A stretch of 64,000 bases of DNA from positions 38,378-102,377 of IMG/VR virus record IMGVR_UViG_3300027708_001885; one strand, given 5' to 3'. The notes beneath the pieces were generated by a model. It was not told the origin of the DNA, did not search any database, and saw only the letters and a list, made by a program, of their open reading frames with translations. Each line of letters opens with the position of its first letter. Position 1 is the first letter of the stretch. The stretch comes from a virus. Positions 3,655-20,676 of the stretch are shown one piece after another. A program made the translations under genes and the position numbers.

Positions 3655-4167
3655 CTATGTTAATTTTATTATATTTACGCCAGATTTTTCTAAAAACTCT
3701 ACTCCTGACTTGTCCCTATAACTATTGCGGTAATATACGCTAGATATGCCGGCGCCATATATGCTTTTAGCACACTCCAAACACGGAGAGTGAGTGACAA
3801 ACATAGACGCACCGGTTCCGCCGACTCCGCCCCGTTTGGCTAATTTATCTAACGCATTTCGTTCAGCATGAAGCACCTCTGGTTTAGTTTTTAATCCATA
3901 ACGTACATCACGTTGGGCACCTTCATGCCATCCTTCGTAAGGATATTTGGCTTCAAATTCGTCAGGGTCAAGCCAACCACCTGCTCCTGCATCCCACACT
4001 CGATCTTCACAGTTGTTATCCCACCCTGCAGGCATACCATTGTAGCCATAGCTGATAACACTGTCGTCTTTGACAATGACAGCACCAACTTGCAATCGTA
4101 CAGCATGACTTAATTGGGCAGTCCGATCTGCCCAGTCCATATACAAGTCTATAAATTTTTGTTTCAT
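3655..4167 (-). CDS. dCMP deaminase
   Basis: VGAVIVK, GYNG, HAERNA and PCLEC motifs. Confidence 0.92.
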   Translation of the reverse strand: MKQKFIDLYMDWADRTAQLSHAVRLQVGAVIVKDDSVISYGYNGMPAGWDNNCEDRVWDAGAGGWLDPDEFEAKYPYEGWHEGAQRDVRYGLKTKPEVLHAERNALDKLAKRGGVGGTGASMFVTHSPCLECAKSIYGAGISSVYYRNSYRDKSGVEFLEKSGVNIIKLT

Positions 4168-4919
4168 TTGTATTCACTTCCGTCTTTTGAATTATATTTT
4201 ACATCTGGATCAAAGTGTTCGAACTGATCGTATCCTGGTTCGTCGGGTAACACCCGTTTACCTACAAACCAATTACCGATGTGTTTAATTATGTTTTTAC
4301 CGTAATAATTTTTTACATTGGCAGAAGTTTGTACTTTTTGTTCTGCTAATACTCTGCCTATAAGACCTTCATTGAGATTATGATCGTAGAATTGTTTATA
4401 GGGGATTTTTGTTGCACTCAAAGGATATAGACTAGCCATTGGTGAAAATATGACACTACCTTTAGTGTATCTAAAATTTTTGTATATTAGATCAGTAGAT
4501 TCTGCTTTTGGGTCTGTCTCGGTTGCATACCATGCTTGCCTTGCCAATTGAATTTGGCTTATTTCAAGATCGCTATTCAGCAACTCTATTAAATCGGTGA
4601 TCAATACAGGCTGTTGTATCAGTACATCATCTTCCATATGGAAAACATAATCGTAATCTCTATCTTTAATTAGATCCCAGAATTGACTCCATGTAACACT
4701 TAGACCTAAATTTTCTTCATGCAGTATAATCTCATCATATCCAAACAACTTAACCAATTCAGTTATCATTAAGTTATTTCTAGTCTTAGGATAATCGTCT
4801 ATAAAAATTTTATGTACTTCACAACCGTAGAAATTTAAATTAGCTTGACACTGTAGGGTTGGGATTAGATATTCTAATCTATTTGTAGAAAACACAACCT
4901 GACAGATTTTATAGGTCAT
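4164..4919 (-). CDS. glycosyltransferase family 2-like
   Basis: IFIDD, YDYVFHMEDD, HIG. Confidence 0.65.
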   Translation of the reverse strand: MTYKICQVVFSTNRLEYLIPTLQCQANLNFYGCEVHKIFIDDYPKTRNNLMITELVKLFGYDEIILHEENLGLSVTWSQFWDLIKDRDYDYVFHMEDDVLIQQPVLITDLIELLNSDLEISQIQLARQAWYATETDPKAESTDLIYKNFRYTKGSVIFSPMASLYPLSATKIPYKQFYDHNLNEGLIGRVLAEQKVQTSANVKNYYGKNIIKHIGNWFVGKRVLPDEPGYDQFEHFDPDVKYNSKDGSEYK

Positions 4920-5467
4920 TAGTATGCCTCTACGTCAAAAAAGAATGTTTGGAACAATCGACCATTTTCTTTACTGTCACCGAAGTAATCTAAACTTGCA
5001 TGAAACAGGTCACCTCTGTAGAGTATAAGTCTGTTGTACTTGTTGCCTATTCTATCGAATAAATCCCACTTGGTATAATCGTATCCTTCATGATAAGATT
5101 CGGTACGTCTATATTCGCCTGTTGCCTTATGTCGATATAAACCTGTGCCTCCTGTGTATGGTGCATCTGGTGTTAGATAGCATACTCCTGCCCATTGATT
5201 ATAGTGATCGGCATGTATCCATGTTCTGTCCTGTGCAGTAGCCAATTGAAAAGCCCCAGTACATCCTTGATTCTCAAACCAGTTAGTTACATTACCGACA
5301 GAATTCATCCAATACTGTATTGCATCTTTAACATCATCTGGCAGGTAGGGTTTTGTTCGTACTCCGGGATAGTTACCTGTAACATCAAACGATTGTTCTA
5401 GTGCATATTTTCTTACAGCATCTGGATCGCTATAAAAATTATCAACAATTAATAATTCTAAATTCAT
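4919..5467 (-). CDS. 2OG-Fe(II) oxygenase-like protein (DUF6445-like)
   Basis: IVDNFY.DPD, NYPGVRT, WIHAD, GTGLY, YNRLILY..H, RLFQTFF. Confidence 0.75.
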   Translation of the reverse strand: MNLELLIVDNFYSDPDAVRKYALEQSFDVTGNYPGVRTKPYLPDDVKDAIQYWMNSVGNVTNWFENQGCTGAFQLATAQDRTWIHADHYNQWAGVCYLTPDAPYTGGTGLYRHKATGEYRRTESYHEGYDYTKWDLFDRIGNKYNRLILYRGDLFHASLDYFGDSKENGRLFQTFFFDVEAY

Positions 5468-5468
5468 A

Positions 5469-6230
5469 TTAATACCTTAAAAATTGACCACCAGCTCCGT
5501 CCCACCCGTATACTACCCAATCTGTTTCAATAATATTTGGCTCATATACTCTTGTAAAAAAGTATAACAAGGTTTCTACATCATATATCGAACCGTTAGG
5601 GTGATTGGTAAATGTTGCAATGACTCTGTAAATATCTAATATTCTGTCCATATTCATTCTGCCCCATCCGTATAGGACAGACGAGTACTGATAGAGTTTA
5701 TTATCATTTTGAATAGCACGACGATCTACTATTTGATAATTCCAGCTGTCATTCCATTCATACTTGAAAGGATGTTTAAAGAAGATTTTATCGAGATTTT
5801 CTTCATTGAGCAAACTGGTATCAAAATTACTATCAACAAAATACCGTCCACTCATTTTAAAGTAGTAGTCGTATCCGTCTAAAACACTTCTGTACTTTTC
5901 GATGAACTTGACCAACATTAACGACTCGCCGAAACTCTTGTTAGGGTGTGTTCTGACTAATTCAAATATATCAGGAAATTCTTCCTTAACTGACACAAAC
6001 ACAAGATTTTTCTGATAACCTAGTGTAGACTTATATTGCTCGTAATCTTCTGATGCATCAATTAGAAAAATAGTAGTATCAGCTCCAGCCATCATATCAA
6101 GTGATGCTATAGTAAAGATGGTGTGTTTAAATCTATCAGCACTTGAAAAGGTTGTTCGTACCTTACTGTATGTAAGTGGGTTAGTATTATCGACATCAAT
6201 AACACTGGTAATTAAAAATGCTTTTTTCAT
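5469..6230 (-). CDS. hypothetical protein, putative glycosyltransferase-related
   Basis: FLITSVI...FKMSGRY motif; flanked by GT genes. Confidence 0.55.
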   Translation of the reverse strand: MKKAFLITSVIDVDNTNPLTYSKVRTTFSSADRFKHTIFTIASLDMMAGADTTIFLIDASEDYEQYKSTLGYQKNLVFVSVKEEFPDIFELVRTHPNKSFGESLMLVKFIEKYRSVLDGYDYYFKMSGRYFVDSNFDTSLLNEENLDKIFFKHPFKYEWNDSWNYQIVDRRAIQNDNKLYQYSSVLYGWGRMNMDRILDIYRVIATFTNHPNGSIYDVETLLYFFTRVYEPNIIETDWVVYGWDGAGGQFLRY

Positions 6231-7249
6231 TCTCTGTAAAAATCCTTAGCCTGTAGTTTCTTAAAATATTCATCAAATTTTTTGTGTACTACAGATTCCT
6301 CGCAGTTGACCCATGCCCAATCTCTACAGGCTTTGGGATCTATGAGATGTATGTTTTTTAATGCTGTAACAAATTCTTTAAACTCTCTGCAACGATATCC
6401 CGTAACACCGTGTACTACTGTTTCAGTAAAACCACCCCAGTCTGTTGTAATTGCAGGTGTACCGCAGAAATACCCCTCAACCACCATATTGCCAAACGGC
6501 TCGACATAGTAAGTGGGCCCAATAATGGCCTGTGCATCACGCATCAATTCTTTTCTTTGATCGGAGCCAACTAGTCCTACACAGGTTACGTGCTCGGGTA
6601 TTTCTTTATATCCCATATCCGTGAGACTACCCGGACCAGCAATGATTAGCTTATGTCCAGATTTCTCTGTAGCCTGTATCGCAATGTGTATGCCTTTACT
6701 TTCAATTACACGGCCGAAGTACAGTATATAGTCTTTCTTTTTTGCAGAATATTCAAACTCGTCGGCACTAAATCCATTTGGAATAACTGCATCATACCAG
6801 CTGGGAGTCATCAACATACCTCGTTCACCATACATCATATGTTGCTGTGCATAGCTGACAAATACTCGATAAGGCGCAAATACTGCTTTAGTTTCGTAAC
6901 CGATGCTTGGTTCGACAATCAATAGGTCCTTATTTGCTTCGGCTGCTTCTCGATTCTCCCAACCATGGAAACACATGATTAAATCGCCGGTACGTTTACG
7001 CAGGGCAATTTCTTTGCCTGCACGTTTATTGTATTCTTTTATGTTAGTTTGATTATCATTATATATGTTAGGCAAACACACTATGGTTTTACACGGCACC
7101 TGGCACCCTACAATACCGTAATGAACACAATCCCATCCTAGCTTCTGCATGTTCTCGACAAATTTTATCACAGCTATTGAGAACGCATCTATCCTTCTAT
7201 CAATATGAACAGGACTGTATGGACTACTTAAAATGTGCAATGTTGACAT
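6227..7249 (-). CDS. glycosyltransferase family 4 (GT-B)
   Basis: YFGRVIESKG and EPFGNMVVEG...GTPAITTDWGG. Confidence 0.88.
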   Translation of the reverse strand: MSTLHILSSPYSPVHIDRRIDAFSIAVIKFVENMQKLGWDCVHYGIVGCQVPCKTIVCLPNIYNDNQTNIKEYNKRAGKEIALRKRTGDLIMCFHGWENREAAEANKDLLIVEPSIGYETKAVFAPYRVFVSYAQQHMMYGERGMLMTPSWYDAVIPNGFSADEFEYSAKKKDYILYFGRVIESKGIHIAIQATEKSGHKLIIAGPGSLTDMGYKEIPEHVTCVGLVGSDQRKELMRDAQAIIGPTYYVEPFGNMVVEGYFCGTPAITTDWGGFTETVVHGVTGYRCREFKEFVTALKNIHLIDPKACRDWAWVNCEESVVHKKFDEYFKKLQAKDFYRE

Positions 7250-7271
7250 ATTATTAATTATCGCTAATCAA

Positions 7272-7346
7272 TGGCCGGCCCTGCAGGAATTGAACCCACA
7301 TCGCATGGTTCGAAGCCACGTATTCTATCCATTGAACTAAGGGCCG
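7272..7346 (-). tRNA. tRNA-Arg(UCG)
   Basis: Cloverleaf; anticodon arm CGTGG-CTTCGAA-CCATG; encoded CCA. Confidence 0.9.
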
Positions 7347-7350
7347 CAAA

Positions 7351-7830
7351 TTAAGTAGCAAACCAAACTTCATCAAACCCTTCTTCCAAAGAAGGTGGGT
7401 CTGCTGTTAGATCAAAAGCCATTTGTTCTACTACACTTATTGGAATCTCTTTACCAGGTCGACTTGCTAAACGCTTGGCTAATTCTTCTTTTTCAGGAGT
7501 CTTAAACACTACTGCAATCTTGTAGTAGTCTGGCAACATGTTGAACTTACGAGCACGACTTGCAATAGTTGTACTGGTCTGATCCCAAATGATATCACGC
7601 TTCATTTCACGGGCCGCAATTACTTCCTTGGCCATGAGATCAACAGCAGTGGGCATGAAATCTGTAAACACTTCGGAATAGGTACGACCCACTTCCTTGG
7701 CATAGATTTCAACCCACTTGTCTGTACTGATGCGAGCACAGGTTATTGCCCATTCCTGATCATCTACCCATGTAGACTTACCTGAACCAGGCACTCCGAC
7801 TAGTACATATAATTTACATCGTTGGTCCAT
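7351..7830 (-). CDS. P-loop kinase, polynucleotide-kinase-like (AAA_33)
   Basis: GVPGSGKST, ISTD and IIWDQTS; start moved to MDQRCK. Confidence 0.8.
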   Translation of the reverse strand: MDQRCKLYVLVGVPGSGKSTWVDDQEWAITCARISTDKWVEIYAKEVGRTYSEVFTDFMPTAVDLMAKEVIAAREMKRDIIWDQTSTTIASRARKFNMLPDYYKIAVVFKTPEKEELAKRLASRPGKEIPISVVEQMAFDLTADPPSLEEGFDEVWFAT

Positions 7831-8419
7831 TGCCGTTCCTAAATGTAATTGATCCACCTTCTTCAACAATGCGCTTTTTTACATCCTCGAACAAGATGGG
7901 CGCAAAGTCCGGAGTCTGCTCAACGCAAACACAATGATAACGAACATCGTTCTCGTCGCTGTACAAGACTTCTCCTGTACGGGCATCGACACCCCTGGCC
8001 TTCTTGACACGATTTGCATGTAAATGACCGTGAACGTTAACACCGAATCGACCTAAGCTGTCACTATGTAAAGGAATATGACTAAAGATCATACCCTCTA
8101 CAACGTGATAGGCTCGCAATTCACGGAAGTAAGCTCTGTATTCGTCATCTCGGAAGATGTCGTGGTTACCGCGGATTAAGACCTTGTCGCCGTTCAAGCG
8201 AGCTAATGTCTTTAATGCCTTACGGTTAATAACCACATCGCCCAAATGATATATTTTATCTGTGGGCTTAACACGTTCGTTCCAAGCCTTGACCATGGCT
8301 TCGTCCATTTCTTCAGGACTGTCCCAAGGACGTAACTTTGTGACACCGTCGTTACGAGTGAACTTACAGACACCCATGTGTCCGAAGTGCGTATCACTCA
8401 CTAAAAATGTCGCTGTCAT
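7814..8419 (-). CDS. calcineurin-like metallophosphoesterase
   Basis: SDTHFGH, HLGD, GNHD and HGHLH motifs. Confidence 0.9.
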   Translation of the reverse strand: MTATFLVSDTHFGHMGVCKFTRNDGVTKLRPWDSPEEMDEAMVKAWNERVKPTDKIYHLGDVVINRKALKTLARLNGDKVLIRGNHDIFRDDEYRAYFRELRAYHVVEGMIFSHIPLHSDSLGRFGVNVHGHLHANRVKKARGVDARTGEVLYSDENDVRYHCVCVEQTPDFAPILFEDVKKRIVEEGGSITFRNGNGPTM

Positions 8420-9748: not shown

Positions 9749-9869
9749 AACAGGTTCTCATTTTTGTGCTACCAATACACCAACACAGTTGACCAAACTG
9801 TGTCCAGGATTCGAACCTGGTCCGTCTTTTTTGCAGAAAGTTTAATAAGATTGCTGAAAAGAACCTAAA
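9749..9869 (-). ncRNA. Y-RNA-like element 1 with circularly permuted tRNA (GCA anticodon)
   Basis: Terminal stem AGGTTC/GAACCT, then TTCAGCAA, anticodon arm, T arm, loop-closed acceptor stem and D arm. Confidence 0.7.
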
Positions 9870-9880
9870 TGGTCAAATAA

Positions 9881-10001
9881 AACAGGCTACTTTTTTTGAT
9901 GGCGATGAAGCCATTGCTCTACCATTGAGCGAATTTGGGAAACCCCAAATGTTGGAATCGAACCAACGTGTCATAAATGACTTTGCTGAACGTAGCCTAA
10001 A
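9881..10001 (-). ncRNA. Y-RNA-like element 2 with circularly permuted tRNA
   Basis: Terminal stem AGGCTAC/GTAGCCT, then TTCAGCAA, T arm, loop-closed acceptor stem, D arm and anticodon-like arm. Confidence 0.7.
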
Positions 10002-10079: not shown

Positions 10080-10228
10080 ATAATTGGTGGAGAACATTTT
10101 TGAGGTATCCCCTATGAAGCAGATCACTGCTAACCTGTTACATCGCATTTTAGTACTATTACTTGCCCCAAAGATTAGGTACCTACCTTGGCCGCTCATA
10201 CTGGATAATGTAACTTATCCGCTGTTCT

Positions 10229-10387: not shown

Positions 10388-10517
10388 AAAATAAATTAGG
10401 GCACAACTATCTATCCTTACAGGACCAATAACACTTATTACCGTATTACTGACGACCATTGTTATTTAAAATTAGCACAGCGTCGACTAAGGACTAGAAG
10501 TGCTGATCCCCTAAAAC

Positions 10518-10674: not shown

Positions 10675-10676
10675 AT

Positions 10677-10759
10677 ACTTTATTGAAACACACTAACCGC
10701 TCTGTTCCTACTGTATGCCTACAGTTTGTATCCATTCGTTTAATACGTTTCAATAAAGT
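10677..10759 (-). repeat. hairpin cassette A (AAACACAYU/AGUGUGUUU family)
   Basis: About 19-bp stem whose G-U pairs form only on the minus strand; 45-nt insert. Confidence 0.7.
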
Positions 10760-10965
10760 GTCTAGCTACCTACACCACATAGGCCCTAGACTGAGCGGTC
10801 TACTCTGTCTACGTATTTCTTCTTTTGGAAAAGGTTAGCGTTCCCCACCCAATGCGTTTCCAGTATCCCCCAACAGGGACTGATAGTCAATGCACTGCAC
10901 ACTTAGCACTCTCTATGGTGACTGCCCCACCCACTTTCATAACGTCAAAGTGTAACCCGGGTTTC

Positions 10966-11654: not shown

Positions 11655-11664
11655 ATATATTGTT

Positions 11665-11952
11665 TGGTGCTCCGAGCCGGACTCGAACCGGCACACCTTG
11701 CGGCGAGAGATTTTCTTACCACTATAGTTTTCACTACCCTTGCGGTTTGATGGTCTGGACTATACCTTCATCATAGTATTACTACTTTAGATGCCCGCCG
11801 TCTAGTCTCTACACGTTCCCTTTCGGGCTTCGCTCGGTATTAGCATTTTACAGCCTTCACCGAATTTGACGGGTTCTACTCCTAGCATTTCCACTAGGGC
11901 ACTCAAATTTTACTCTCAAGTCTCTTGTGTCTACCTATTTCACCATCGGAGC
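11665..11952 (-). tRNA. tRNA-Leu(UAA) split by a group I intron (exons 11918-11952 and 11665-11714)
   Basis: Splicing gives AGAGA-CTTAAAA-TCTCT with a long variable arm and ACCA end. Confidence 0.92.
11715..11917 (-). mobile_element. group I intron (IC3-like, ORF-less, 203 nt)
   Basis: Inserted after U34 and ends in G; core motifs AATTCGGTGAA, AATACCGAGC, TGTAGAGACTAGACGG and AAGGTATAGTCC. Confidence 0.92.
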
Positions 11953-11960
11953 ATTACCAA

Positions 11961-12035
11961 ATTAAAACATACTACTAACAGGCGGTCGATATCAGCGTTA
12001 GCCAAGTCACTTACCCGTATGCAGTATGTTTTAAT
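11961..12035 (-). repeat. hairpin cassette B
   Basis: ATTAAAACATACTGC/GTAGTATGTTTTAAT stem; 45-nt insert. Confidence 0.7.
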
Positions 12036-12036
12036 A

Positions 12037-17275: not shown

Positions 17276-17315
17276 ACCGTGTCGAGGTAGTGTTCTACCA
17301 TTAAACTAAGGACCT
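17276..17315 (-). pseudogene. 5' half of a tRNA-Val(GAC), truncated by the HNH insertion
   Basis: AGGTCCT-TA-GTTT-AATGGTA-GAAC-A-CTACC-TCGACAC-GGT, then unrelated sequence. Confidence 0.75.
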
Positions 17316-17323
17316 GAATAGGT

Positions 17324-17473
17324 TTTCGAGAGACCAGCTATCTTTCTGAAGGACTCACTGGCTTGTCTCGTATGAGCGAGTTTAAACTACCCTGTATAAT
17401 TCTACTGGTGTGTCATGCATCAGCCTAATGCACTAGAATACAAGGGACTCGAATCTCTACGTCTATCTCGAAA
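17324..17473 (-). ncRNA. candidate structured ncRNA (~150 nt)
   Basis: Terminal TTTCGAGA/TCTCGAAA stem with nested helices and a possible pseudoknot. Confidence 0.5.
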
Positions 17474-17474
17474 C

Positions 17475-17595
17475 TGGTGCCGCTGCTGGGATTCGAACCC
17501 AGATAACCCCCTTGACATGGATTAAGAAAATTGCTGAACGTACTCTATACAGAGTCACCCTTTTATAAGGTGTCCTACCATTAGGCGACAGCGGC
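17475..17595 (-). ncRNA. CCA-ended tRNA with the UUCAGCAA module inserted in its anticodon arm
   Basis: Acceptor GCCGCTG/CAGCGGC, TTCGAAT T loop and ACCA end; about 45-nt insert containing ACTCT-GTAT-AGAGT-AC-GTTCAGCAA. Confidence 0.75.
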
Positions 17596-17602
17596 AATAA
17601 CT

Positions 17603-17677
17603 TGGTGGTAATGACTGGATTTGAACCAGTAACACTCTCCGTATGAAGGAGGAAGACTACCATTGTCCTACATTACC
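17603..17677 (-). tRNA. tRNA with CAU anticodon (Met or Ile2)
   Basis: CTCC-TTCATAC-GGAG; ACCA end. Confidence 0.85.
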
Positions 17678-17759
17678 ATATAGAAACACACTGGCTTGCA
17701 AGACTCCTACTAACCTTTCGATAGATGTCGCAGTTAGTATTCAATGTGTTTTTATATGG
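17676..17759 (-). repeat. hairpin cassette D
   Basis: CCATATAAAAACACATTG/CAGTGTGTTTCTATATGG stem; 48-nt insert. Confidence 0.7.
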
Positions 17760-17793
17760 TAGGGGTTTTATGAGTTGATGCATAAATAAGTGT

Positions 17794-18702
17794 ATGCCTA
17801 ATTATACAACATTTACATGTTCTTGCATAGTCTGCAAACAACCAAAAACCTCAAAAGGTATTCATTCTCATTATCTCATTTCTCATACAGAAGAAGGACG
17901 AGCAAGAAATCGTAAAAATCGTCTTGCTGGTGGATTATTAGGTTCTGAAATTGCTAAACAAAATGCACAGCAAATTCAAAATCAATATTTAGAAAATCCT
18001 AACAAATGCAAACAGTGCGATGTCTCTCTTACATACGAGCAGCGTCATAATAAATTCTGTTCAACATCCTGTTCGGCAAGTTTTTACAACAAGGATCGAA
18101 AAGGTGTTGCTCTAGATACTGCTGTGAAACAAAAGATTTCAGATAGTGTTAAAAAGTTTAATCTAGAAAATCCTTACACCAAATCAAAACAGATGTTTAG
18201 CAGACTATCGTATTGTTGTATATGCAACTCTGTCATACAAAACAAAATTGTTAAAACTTGTTCTTCTAAATGCAAGTCAGTGCTGTTATCAAACAACATG
18301 TCCGATAGAATCAAACAAAACAGAAGAAGTAATTATCGCAGAGATAAAAGATCTTATCTCGAAGAATCATTTGAAACTTGGTTGTTGGATAACAACATTT
18401 CTCTAAAATATGAAACTGAATACACTATTAAAAATCATATTACACAGAAATGGTATTTCGTGGATTTCTACTTTCCCGAAATAAATCTTATAGTTGAACT
18501 TGACGGGAAACAGCACGAAAAACCTAAACACAAAGAAGCAGACAAACTTCGTGATGAATACATCACTACTAATCTAAACTTAAATGTTTTTAGAATTTCT
18601 TATGATGAATATCAAGCTGGTTCTAAAATAAACGAATTACTAAAATTATTGGTGAGGCAGGTGGGGTTCGAACCCACAAGGAGATTTCTCTCGCCAGATT
18701 AA
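17794..18702 (+). CDS. Zn-finger + DUF559/Vsr-like PD-(D/E)xK endonuclease (homing-type)
   Basis: Repeated CxxC and FCSxxC motifs; YFVDFY...IVELDGKQH...D..RD; ends antisense within tRNA-Lys. Confidence 0.82.
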   Translation: MPNYTTFTCSCIVCKQPKTSKGIHSHYLISHTEEGRARNRKNRLAGGLLGSEIAKQNAQQIQNQYLENPNKCKQCDVSLTYEQRHNKFCSTSCSASFYNKDRKGVALDTAVKQKISDSVKKFNLENPYTKSKQMFSRLSYCCICNSVIQNKIVKTCSSKCKSVLLSNNMSDRIKQNRRSNYRRDKRSYLEESFETWLLDNNISLKYETEYTIKNHITQKWYFVDFYFPEINLIVELDGKQHEKPKHKEADKLRDEYITTNLNLNVFRISYDEYQAGSKINELLKLLVRQVGFEPTRRFLSPD

Positions 18703-19012: not shown

Positions 19013-19105
19013 TGATAATAGGGGTGACCACTGAGAAGTCTCACTCAGACTACAACTTTCACAGAGTTGGGTGCCAATTTTACACTATGGTCACCCCTAT
19101 TATCA
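19013..19105 (-). tRNA. tRNA-His(GUG)-like, atypical T loop, acceptor extended to an 18-bp stem, no encoded CCA
   Basis: CAACT-CTGTGAA-AGTTG; G-1:C73; T loop TGAGACTT. Confidence 0.7.
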
Positions 19106-19112
19106 CATAAAC

Positions 19113-19187
19113 TGGCAGGGGCTGAAGGTAACGCTCCTTCTCACCTAGTTTCAAAGACTAGTATCTGCTCTTATCGATTTAACCCCT
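19113..19187 (-). tRNA. tRNA-Gln(UUG), atypical
   Basis: CTAGT-CTTTGAA-ACTAG; T loop AGCGTTA; AGGGG/CCCCT-G acceptor. Confidence 0.72.
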
Positions 19188-19193
19188 AAATAT

Positions 19194-19255
19194 AACAGGA
19201 TGCTTATTTTTCAATTAACAGTTGAATTGGATAAGTTTGCTGAACGCATCCTAAA
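19194..19255 (-). ncRNA. Y-RNA-like element 3 carrying an isolated GUU anticodon hairpin
   Basis: AGGATGC/GCATCCT stem, TTCAGCAA, TTCAA-CTGTTAA-TTGAA. Confidence 0.7.
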
Positions 19256-19507: not shown

Positions 19508-19573
19508 AACAGGATCAACTTTTTAGTTTCTGGATAAAAGAAAGTTTGTTAGTTTTGCTGAACTGATCCTAAA
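19508..19573 (-). ncRNA. Y-RNA-like element 4 carrying a 5-bp/7-nt hairpin
   Basis: AGGATCA/TGATCCT stem, TTCAGCAA, TTTCT-TTTATCC-AGAAA. Confidence 0.65.
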
Positions 19574-20515: not shown

Positions 20516-20521
20516 TAAAAT

Positions 20522-20635
20522 TGGTACGACTGGTAGGTCCTGCCCCTACAAGGGCTGCGAGTTATACTCATCGCCCCGGCCCCATTCCGTGCTATAAGCA
20601 CAGCGGGAGGTCTGCTATATTCCACTCACAGTCGC
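20522..20635 (-). ncRNA. tRNA-like RNA (114 nt) with enlarged anticodon and variable arms
   Basis: GCGACTG/CAGTCGT-ACCA acceptor; T stem GTAGG/CCTAC with a GGCAGGA loop. Confidence 0.65.
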
Positions 20636-20642
20636 ATATATA

Positions 20643-20670
20643 ATTATACACGAGTTAAGTAGAATGTCAA
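20643..20670 (-). promoter_or_regulatory. sigma70 promoter
   Basis: TTGACA-16 nt-TATAAT. Confidence 0.75.
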
Positions 20671-20676
20671 GTTATT

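What the first reader, a model, noticed from the sequence alone, without database searches (positions are those of the whole stretch)
17475..17595. Inside-out version of the module: CCA-ended tRNA with the UUCAGCAA stem inserted in its anticodon arm
Seen: normal acceptor stem (GCCGCUG/CAGCGGC-ACCA), D region and T arm, but about 45 extra nt lie between the anticodon-stem strands. The insert contains ACUCU-GUAU-AGAGU-AC-G-UUCAGCAA. This is the family's terminal stem with its 3' (CU-GU) and 5' (U-AG) ends joined by a loop. A GUC triplet survives near the 3' side. Inference: the same two-domain RNA exists in the opposite circular permutation. This could be an evolutionary link between tRNA and Y-like RNA, or a CCA-bearing, possibly chargeable member. 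The insert is too short for a group I intron.
Basis: partly seen in the sequence, partly recalled or inferred. Interest (0 to 1): 0.8.

Follow-up and report, generated by a model that had tools for sequence, protein, structure and literature searches.

The report
tRNA carrying a Ro60-type protein handle
This phage gene encodes a complete tRNA-shaped RNA with a conserved 47-base arm spliced into its anticodon stem; the same arm is the "handle" of a widespread, apparently undescribed family of phage small RNAs that travel with a Ro60-like ring protein.

Summary
On the minus strand, 17595->17475 is a 121-nt RNA with a 7-bp acceptor stem, ACCA, D arm and T arm. It carries a 47-nt insert made of a hairpin followed by UUCAGCAA.

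Thirty-four homologues from viral contigs keep the insert, so it is not decay or chance. Every helix covaries.

One refinement. The two bases after position 26 pair with the far strand of the GUC hairpin. The RNA is therefore a full cloverleaf, and its anticodon stem is interrupted after its second base pair. Deleting the insert in silico makes ARAGORN call all 34 as normal tRNAs; this one is called Asp-GUC.

The hairpin plus UUCAGCAA is the same handle that closes four neighbouring RNAs, two of which have circularly permuted tRNA bodies. It also occurs in more than 100 viral contigs.

Handle RNAs flank a DUF2828/DUF7788 gene whose model matches Ro60. That gene is present in 16 of 16 near-complete handle-bearing genomes. 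It is absent from this 102-kb fragment.

Best reading: a Y-RNA-like tRNA mimic in non-permuted form. No experiment supports binding, charging or splicing.

This scan met the same family earlier on other phage DNA. I class it as a new variant of a known kind.

The parts
17475..17595 (-). Whole 121-nt handle-tagged tRNA-shaped RNA (RNA nt 1 = 17595, nt 121 = 17475)
   Evidence: Rfam tRNA 36.8 bits. Covariance model R1 scores it 123 bits. 34 homologues.
17589..17595 (-). Acceptor stem, 5' strand (nt 1-7). It pairs with 17479-17485.
   Evidence: All 7 pairs show compensatory changes; 99.6% of cells paired.
17572..17586 (-). D arm (nt 10-24): GCCU-AAUGGUA-GGAC. Homologues have GUCU.
   Evidence: All 4 pairs covary. 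The C11.A24 mismatch occurs only in this copy.
17569..17570 (-). Top two bases of the anticodon-stem 5' strand (nt 26-27, CC). They pair with 17507-17508.
   Evidence: Long-range pairs are formed in 34/34 and 32/34 homologues, with pair types CG/UA/AU and UA/GC/CG/UG.
17522..17568 (-). 47-nt insert (nt 28-74): A-rich linker, hairpin, G, UUCAGCAA, U-rich linker
   Evidence: Inserts of 41-52 nt lie at the same place in all 34 homologues. Removing them gives ARAGORN-callable tRNAs.
17540..17558 (-). Handle hairpin (nt 38-56): GU(G)ACUCU-GUAU-AGAGUAC
   Evidence: The five core pairs are 100% paired and all covary. A G after the 5' strand is seen in every row of the alignment as printed.
17531..17538 (-). 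UUCAGCAA, the single-stranded part of the handle (nt 58-65)
   Evidence: The CAGCA core is invariant apart from one row with G at the first A (C 34/34, A 33/34, G 34/34, C 34/34, A 34/34).
17507..17521 (-). Lower anticodon stem (UCC), 7-nt loop AUGUCAA and 3' strand GGGGG (nt 75-89)
   Evidence: The inner three pairs covary. Loop pattern is (A/C)U-NNN-AA with a variable triplet.
17486..17502 (-). T arm (nt 94-110). The 4-nt variable loop lies at 17503-17506.
17475..17485 (-). Acceptor 3' strand, discriminator A and encoded CCA (nt 111-121)
   Evidence: NCCA is encoded in 25 of 34 homologues; some of those were found with a pattern that demanded CCA.
9884..9998 (-). Sibling handle RNA with a circularly permuted tRNA-like body
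   Evidence: Weak Rfam YrlA match: 26.5 bits against a cut-off of 69.
9752..9866 (-). Sibling handle RNA with a second permuted tRNA-like body
   Evidence: Homologues in many contigs and in Synechococcus phage BUCT-ZZ01.
19197..19252 (-). Short sibling handle RNA (handle plus one hairpin)
19511..19570 (-). Short sibling handle RNA (handle plus one hairpin)

Best explanation
The RNA is a non-permuted member of a phage family of 'handle' RNAs that work like Y RNAs.

Shown:
- It is a complete tRNA cloverleaf with an encoded CCA end.
- The 5' strand of its anticodon stem is interrupted, after base pair 2, by a conserved arm: a roughly 7-bp hairpin that begins AGR on its 3' strand, one nucleotide, then UUCAGCAA.
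- The same arm forms the terminal stem of stand-alone and circularly permuted tRNA-like RNAs in this array and in more than 100 viral contigs.
- These RNAs flank, and co-occur genome-wide with, a DUF2828/DUF7788 protein whose predicted fold matches Ro60.

Inferred:
- The RNA is cut out of the tRNA operon transcript by RNase P and 3' processing, like its neighbours.
- The handle is the docking site of the Ro60-like ring protein.
- The tRNA body is displayed as a tRNA mimic. It acts as bait or tether for a tRNA-binding factor, plausibly within RNA repair or defence against tRNA-cutting nucleases, and not as a decoder.
- With a roughly 50-kDa protein on an arm leaving the anticodon stem, use on the ribosome is unlikely.
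For: Structure:
- In 34 homologues aligned to model R1, 99.3% of cells are paired. 24 of 26 pairs show compensatory change. 0 of 500 shuffles and no slid control come near.
- The split anticodon stem is supported by pairs the model was not built with.

Same handle elsewhere:
- Fixed AGR-N5-UUCAGCAA spacing in five RNAs of the window, with a CAGCA core that is invariant apart from one row.

Partner protein:
- A protein of about 472 aa lies on the same strand beside handle RNAs in 32 fetched loci.
- Pfam DUF2828 plus DUF7788 match 17 of 17 members.
- The AlphaFold model has pLDDT 85.5. The 11 best Foldseek matches are all Ro60/Rsr structures, with E from 1.5e-10 to 8e-8 and TM 0.51-0.66.
- The gene is present in 25 of 32 handle-bearing records and in 16 of 16 that are at least 90% complete.
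- Baselines: 710 of 50,697 phage records, and 0 of 15 records whose pattern match is not of the family type.
- Relatives carrying a near-identical tagged tRNA have the gene, flanked by handle RNAs.
- In Cronobacter phage S13, two tagged tRNAs follow the gene directly.
- In Listeria phage LMTA-34, three handle RNAs lie between a promoter and the gene, and RtcB lies downstream.
- A related Listeria phage has three very abundant transcripts upstream of its Rsr-like gene (PMC12282133).

Not needed for decoding:
- The window has two ordinary tRNA-Asp(GUC) genes.
- In 14 of 25 loci the tagged anticodon is also present on an ordinary tRNA.
Against: - No DUF2828 or TROVE gene lies on this 102-kb contig.
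- The slot where relative G001 carries the gene holds other genes here.
- The contig is only about 22% of the genome.
- No binding, transcript or processing data exist for any member.
- The handle lacks the GNCGAAN0-1G motif proposed for Rsr binding (PMC4201824).
- The nearest-neighbour energy model prefers local hairpins (-39.2 kcal/mol) over the cloverleaf with insert (-25.8 kcal/mol) for this sequence.
- A conserved 7-bp acceptor stem, CCA, and an anticodon-type loop with U33 and A37 are features one would expect of a working tRNA.
Confidence: 0.6

Rival explanations
1. It is an intron-bearing tRNA-Asp(GUC). The 47-nt insert is removed after transcription to give a working 74-nt tRNA. The handle may serve as the recognition element for the excision machinery.
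For: - Removing the insert restores a canonical 5-bp anticodon stem, a 7-nt loop and a 74-nt tRNA in all 34 homologues.
- 'Enigmatic' conserved introns have been reported in tRNAs of huge phages (Lak phage preprint 10.1101/356790).
- GenBank annotators called one such gene a two-piece tRNA (Aeromonas phage PX29).
Against: - No splicing route is known for a 41-52-nt insert inside the stem at positions 28/29.
- There is no group I match.
- The tRNA splicing endonuclease is absent from 24 of 24 records. RtcB is present in only 6 of 16 complete genomes and is missing from the 97%-complete relative G024.
- The same handle occurs on RNAs with no tRNA body and on permuted bodies.
- The anticodon is redundant in the window.
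- Anticodons change (GUC, GUU, GCC, UCG, UCU) on one nearly constant body.
Confidence: 0.12
2. It is a chargeable tRNA that keeps its arm: an aminoacylated RNA-protein particle. It could be used as bait for host tRNA-targeting nucleases, or to hold a charged tRNA on the Ro60-like ring.
For: - The 7-bp acceptor stem and NCCA are conserved.
- Among members with a G or U discriminator, the discriminator mostly fits the anticodon: U73 with GCA (Cys) and UCC (Gly), G73 with GUC/GUU (Asp/Asn) in several lineages, judged against the identity table of PMC9976931.
Against: - This copy has A73 and A38 where bacterial Asp identity needs G73 and C38.
- Several members disagree: Met-CAU with G73, Glu-UUC with A73, Gly-GCC with A73.
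- Permuted relatives have sealed acceptor ends, so a free CCA is not needed for the family's core role.
- No charging data exist.
Confidence: 0.15
3. It is a decaying tRNA pseudogene that acquired a chance insertion resembling the handle.
For: - ARAGORN at default settings misses it.
- This copy has one D-stem mismatch.
Against: - 34 homologues keep the insert at the same site, with compensatory changes in every helix and a CAGCA core that is invariant apart from one row.
Confidence: 0.02
4. The handle is only an RNA-processing or stability signal of the tRNA operon (a nuclease entry or stop site) and has no dedicated protein partner.
For: - Permuted and short forms start right after a tRNA's CCA, with GUUUU-AGG, and end with CCU-GUUUUAU.
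Against: - In the target the handle is internal and closed by a loop, yet it keeps the same sequence.
- The tight genomic link to the Ro60-fold gene would be left unexplained.
Confidence: 0.06

Closest known systems
YrlA Y RNAs bound by Rsr/Ro60 (Rfam RF02553; Chen et al. 2014, PMC4201824; Wang et al. 2018, 10.1101/312249)
   Same: - A small RNA joining a protein-binding stem to a tRNA-shaped domain with T and D arms.
- Encoded beside a Ro60-fold gene.
- Several RNAs per locus.
- RtcB is sometimes nearby.
   Different: - The target has an open acceptor stem with encoded CCA and an intact anticodon-type loop, and its protein-binding stem is closed by a loop.
- The handle is AGR-N5-UUCAGCAA, not GNCGAAN0-1G.
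- The partner is DUF2828/DUF7788, which Pfam's TROVE model does not detect.
- The Rfam YrlA model does not match the target.
Processed Mycobacterium smegmatis YrlA (cut by RNase P, CCA added; PMC4201824)
   Same: A Y RNA whose tRNA-like domain ends up with a free tRNA-like 5' end and a CCA 3' end while staying bound to Rsr.
   Different: There the open form is made by cleavage into two pieces. Here it is encoded directly as one continuous chain with the handle closed.
Circularly permuted tRNA genes of red algae and an archaeon (cited in 10.1101/312249)
   Same: Both orders of the two tRNA halves exist for one kind of RNA.
   Different: Those are matured into ordinary tRNAs by the splicing endonuclease. 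No such enzyme was found here, and the handle is retained in the gene.
'Enigmatic' conserved introns in tRNAs of Lak and other huge phages (10.1101/356790)
   Same: Over-long phage tRNA genes with short, highly conserved inserts of unknown nature.
   Different: I did not test whether the Lak inserts carry the CAGCA handle. That paper proposes no protein partner.
tmRNA
   Same: A tRNA-like acceptor and T arm with CCA, and a large insertion in place of a plain anticodon arm.
   Different: - No G3.U70 pair.
- No stop codon in the frame that starts at the handle's GCA (my own reading of the sequence).
- A full D arm and anticodon loop are present.
- No significant Rfam match: permuted-tmRNA model 13.5 bits against a cut-off of 47.

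Membership tests
YrlA (RF02553) | Reaches Rfam's gathering score (69 bits) | tested here: not met
   No YrlA match on the target even at E up to 10. The permuted sibling at 9880-9999 scores 26.5 bits.
YrlA (RF02553) | GNCGAAN0-1G motif near the 5' end (proposed Rsr contact; PMC4201824) | tested here: not met
   The sequence shows AGAGUACG-UUCAGCAA in its place.
YrlA (RF02553) | tRNA-like domain with a loop-closed acceptor stem and no anticodon loop | tested here: not met
   The target has an open 7-bp acceptor stem with ACCA and a 7-nt anticodon-type loop.
YrlA (RF02553) | Encoded near a TROVE-domain Ro60 gene | tested here: inconclusive
   Pfam TROVE matched 0 of 48 records and nothing on the window's own contig. 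A Ro60-fold DUF2828 gene lies next to handle RNAs in 32 loci and in 16 of 16 complete genomes, but not on this contig.
Canonical tRNA (RF00005) | Cloverleaf with conserved D and T loops, above Rfam's cut-off | tested here: met
   36.8 bits against a cut-off of 29. All four helices covary.
Canonical tRNA (RF00005) | Continuous anticodon stem; length of about 73-95 nt | tested here: not met
   A 47-nt insert lies after stem pair 2, giving 121 nt in all. ARAGORN calls it only after the insert is removed.
tRNA-Asp (bacterial identity set, PMC9976931) | G73, G10, G34-U35-C36, C38 | tested here: not met
   G10 and GUC are present. A73 and A38 stand in place of G73 and C38.
Group I intron in a tRNA | Match to RF00028; insertion in the anticodon loop; roughly 200 nt or longer | tested here: not met
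   No match in 17300-17800 at E up to 10. The insert is 47 nt and sits in the stem. A true group I intron elsewhere in the window does match.
Archaeal/eukaryal-type spliced tRNA | tRNA splicing endonuclease (PF01974) available | tested here: not met
   0 of 24 phage records; the archaeal control genomes are detected. Host genomes were not tested.
tmRNA | Rfam tmRNA models; G3.U70 pair; tag reading frame ending in a stop | tested here: not met
   Only a 13.5-bit partial match to the permuted-tmRNA model. The acceptor has C3-G70. By my own reading of the sequence, there is no stop codon in the frame that starts at the handle's GCA.
Phage handle-RNA family (unnamed; defined here) | A stem whose 3' strand starts AGR, one spacer nucleotide, then NNCAGCAN at fixed spacing; the opposite strand ends YCU-G | tested here: met
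   AGAGUAC-G-UUCAGCAA, with ..ACUCU-G on the other strand.

The most novel reading that the evidence does not exclude
The non-permuted members may be genuine, chargeable tRNAs of many isotypes that permanently carry a docking arm for a Ro60-like ring protein. That would be a protein-tagged tRNA: a kind of particle not described before. It could be used by large phages to bait or out-compete host nucleases that cut tRNA anticodon loops, or to hand damaged tRNAs to repair enzymes. A rarer alternative is that the arm is a new protein-assisted tRNA intron that interconverts the permuted and non-permuted forms.
Probability: 0.2. Interest if true: 0.9.

Novelty: new variant of a known kind. Interest (0 to 1): 0.7.

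Why it matters
Y RNAs with Ro60 are a classic RNA-protein particle, but their bacterial and phage versions are poorly understood.

This family would show three things:
- Many phages pair a hidden Ro60 relative (DUF2828) with a set of RNAs built on one handle. These include T4-like, Felix O1-like and Listeria P100-like phages that can be grown in the laboratory.
- The handle can be grafted onto a tRNA in several topologies, including a complete CCA-ended tRNA.
- At least some over-long 'tRNA-OTHER' or 'intron-containing' tRNA calls in phage genomes are such tagged tRNAs.

It would also make a long-standing question directly testable in tractable phage-host pairs: what do the tRNA-like domains of Y RNAs recruit?

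Tried and rejected
- BLAST of the 121-nt RNA against 50,697 phage records found nothing. Homologues came only from degenerate pattern scans and a covariance model.
- ARAGORN's own intron mode proposed a Sec(UCA) tRNA with a 27-nt intron and a poor stem. I rejected this against the covariation data.
- My first model had a local hairpin H1 just after the D arm and a 5-bp local GUC hairpin. It was only 81% and 76% paired. The split anticodon stem replaced it.
- TROVE and RtcB were not found on the window's own contig.
- The 540-aa ORF just upstream of the array is a B12-binding radical-SAM protein, not a Ro60 relative.
- A 514-aa ORF in L011 was a false lead.
- A text search for UUCAGCAA returned only siRNA papers. 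A search for DUF2828 returned no functional paper.
- tmRNA-like reading: by my own reading of the sequence, the frame from GCA has no stop codon.

Full report
**Context.** The window is part of a 102-kb viral contig judged about 22% complete. From 7.2 to 21.9 kb it carries a minus-strand array of 34 ARAGORN-called tRNA genes. The finding lies between tRNA-Met (17603-17677) and an HNH endonuclease gene.

**The observation.** Read on the minus strand, 17595->17475 is a 121-nt RNA. It has a 7-bp acceptor stem, ACCA, a D arm and a T arm. It also has the string ACUCU-GUAU-AGAGU-AC-G-UUCAGCAA and a GUC triplet. Rfam's tRNA model matches at 36.8 bits with a 60-nt insertion. No other Rfam family matches, even at E up to 10.

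UUCAGCAA occurs five times on the tRNA strand inside the array. Each copy lies exactly 8 nt after the start of a stem strand that begins AGR. The other four copies belong to RNAs whose 5' and 3' ends form that stem. Two of them carry circularly permuted tRNA-like bodies, and one of those gives a weak YrlA match of 26.5 bits.

**Homologues.**
Most hits are permuted forms, but some are non-permuted and end in NCCA like the target.
- Two further scans and a covariance model, R1, raised the non-permuted set to 34 distinct sequences.
- The CAGCA core is invariant apart from one row with G at its first A. A G after the hairpin's 5' strand is seen in every printed row.

**Structure.**
- Acceptor, D, handle hairpin and T helices all show compensatory changes.
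- My first model gave poor pairing for a hairpin just after the D arm (81%) and for the outer pairs of the GUC hairpin (76%).
- An earlier first-reader note from this scan, on another genome, prompted a different test: whether the two bases after position 26 pair with the last two bases of the GUC hairpin's 3' strand. They do, in 34 of 34 and 32 of 34 sequences, with pair types CG/UA/AU and UA/GC/CG/UG.
- With these pairs, 99.3% of all cells are paired. No shuffle or slid control comes close. The model was not built with these pairs.
- The RNA is therefore a full cloverleaf. The 5' strand of its anticodon stem is interrupted after pair 2 by a 41-52-nt insert (47 nt here, window 17522-17568).
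- Deleting the insert in silico lets ARAGORN call all 34 as tRNAs of 73-76 nt (one of 81 nt), covering 13 or more isotypes. The target becomes Asp-GUC.
- For this one sequence, the energy model alone prefers local hairpins: -39.2 against -25.8 kcal/mol. An alternative fold cannot be excluded.

**Is it a decoder?**
- The window has two ordinary tRNA-Asp(GUC) genes.
- In 14 of 25 loci the tagged anticodon also sits on an ordinary tRNA nearby.
- Within the target's own clade, one nearly constant body carries GUC, GUU, GCC, UCG or UCU.
- The target has A73 and A38 where bacterial Asp identity needs G73 and C38 (PMC9976931).
- Against this, members with a G or U discriminator mostly fit their anticodon (U73 with Cys and Gly anticodons, G73 with Asp and Asn anticodons). 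Charging of some members stays possible.

**Partner protein.**
- Notes from earlier sessions of this scan spoke of a 'hidden Ro60-like' gene next to such RNAs. I tested this independently.
- Clustering all ORFs in the fetched loci gave one dominant family of about 472 aa. It lies on the same strand beside handle RNAs in 32 loci.
- All 17 aligned members match Pfam DUF2828 and DUF7788.
- The AlphaFold model (pLDDT 85.5) has Ro60/Rsr structures as its 11 best Foldseek matches, with E from 1.5e-10 to 8e-8 and TM 0.51-0.66.
- The gene occurs in 25 of 32 handle-bearing records and in 16 of 16 that are at least 90% complete.
- For comparison, it occurs in 710 of 50,697 phage records and in 0 of 15 records whose pattern match is not of the family type.
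- Pfam TROVE finds none of these proteins.

**Cultured phages show the same arrangement.**
- Cronobacter phage S13 has two tagged tRNAs directly after the gene. They are annotated 'tRNA-Ser' (121 nt) and 'tRNA-OTHER' (113 nt).
- Aeromonas phage PX29 has one, partly covered by a tRNA-Leu annotated as joined from two pieces.
- Listeria phage LMTA-34 has three handle RNAs between a promoter and the gene, with RtcB downstream.
- A transcriptome study of a related Listeria phage found three very abundant RNAs upstream of its Rsr-like gene and suggested they might be Y RNAs (PMC12282133).
- A survey of jumbo phages noted ROT/TROVE proteins but described no RNA partner (PMC7824862).

**Caveats for this window.**
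- The DUF2828 gene is not on the contig.
- In relative G001 the gene cassette lies between homologues of window 7814-8218 and 4004-4168. In the window that slot holds tRNA-Arg and glycosyltransferase genes.
- Relatives with a near-identical tagged tRNA do have the gene (G001, G006, G024, G033). I therefore expect it elsewhere in this genome, but that is an inference.

**The splicing alternative.**
- There is no group I match.
- The tRNA splicing endonuclease is absent from 24 of 24 records.
- RtcB is present in 6 of 16 complete genomes.
- Huge-phage tRNAs with 'enigmatic introns' have been reported (10.1101/356790). I could not test whether those are the same thing.

**Comparison with known families.**
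- The closest family is YrlA with Rsr (PMC4201824; 10.1101/312249). The logic is the same: a protein-binding stem, a tRNA mimic, and a neighbouring Ro60-fold gene.
- The target is not a YrlA member. It fails the Rfam score, the GNCGAA motif, and the closed-acceptor, no-anticodon-loop anatomy.
- It resembles the RNase P-opened, CCA-tailed form of M. smegmatis YrlA. The difference is that here the open form is encoded directly as one chain.

**Verdict.**
- The 'opposite permutation' reading is supported.
- The function as a Y-RNA-like tRNA mimic for a DUF2828 Ro60-type protein rests on strong genomic association only.
- This scan has met the same family before on other phage genomes.
- I found no paper or Rfam family that describes the handle or the tagged-tRNA form.

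Noticed in passing
window 11734-11921 (-), flanks about 11655-12036: A group I intron (Rfam RF00028, 61.1 bits) sits inside what looks like a split tRNA gene between tRNA-Leu and tRNA-Asn. The intron is unusually short, about 188 nt.
   Followed up: no
window 19196-19251 (-) and 9805-9865 (-): Rfam's Dictyostelium Class I RNA model (RF01414) gives weak matches (27 and 14.9 bits; cut-off 41.5) to the short handle RNAs. Its consensus is also an end-to-end stem followed by CCUUACAGCAA, which closely resembles the phage handle.
   Followed up: no
window 4168-7814 compared with L156: In relative G001 the DUF2828 gene and its handle RNAs sit between homologues of window 7814-8218 and 4004-4168. In the window that slot holds tRNA-Arg(UCG), a glycosyltransferase and three other ORFs, which suggests a cassette exchange.
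   Followed up: partly
L039:564-682, L051:7629-7747, L141:4930-5055: Three tagged tRNAs have 8-nt anticodon loops (AUUCAUAA). After the insert is removed, ARAGORN reads them as four-base anticodons (UCAU).
   Followed up: no
window 10388-10517, 10080-10228, 10675-10965, 20516-20676, 19095-19190 (all -): Further stretches between tRNAs hold no ORF of 70 aa or more on the tRNA strand. One begins GUUUUAGGGG like the handle RNAs but lacks the normal spacing to CAGCA. Their nature is unknown.
   Followed up: no
L161 (KC954775) 4396-4638; L162 (GU396103) 6286-6401; L160 (PP919962) 2363-2794: GenBank records of cultured phages annotate tagged tRNAs as 'tRNA-Ser' (121 nt), 'tRNA-OTHER' (113 nt), a two-piece tRNA-Leu, or a 432-nt 'tRNA-Arg' that overlaps the DUF2828 gene. 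These are probably mis-annotations of handle-tagged tRNAs.
   Followed up: partly
L163 (Listeria phage LMTA-34) 2600-7061; G022 187452-191894: RtcB lies 1.3-1.8 kb from the DUF2828 gene in a Listeria phage and in one huge phage. This echoes the Salmonella rsr-yrlBA-rtcBA operon.
   Followed up: partly
several permuted loci, e.g. L017, L032, L042, L043, L071, L080: In some circularly permuted members, the loop that seals the acceptor stem starts with NCCA right after the 3' strand. This fits an origin from tandem copies of the non-permuted gene, or opening by RNase P as in M. smegmatis YrlA.
   Followed up: partly
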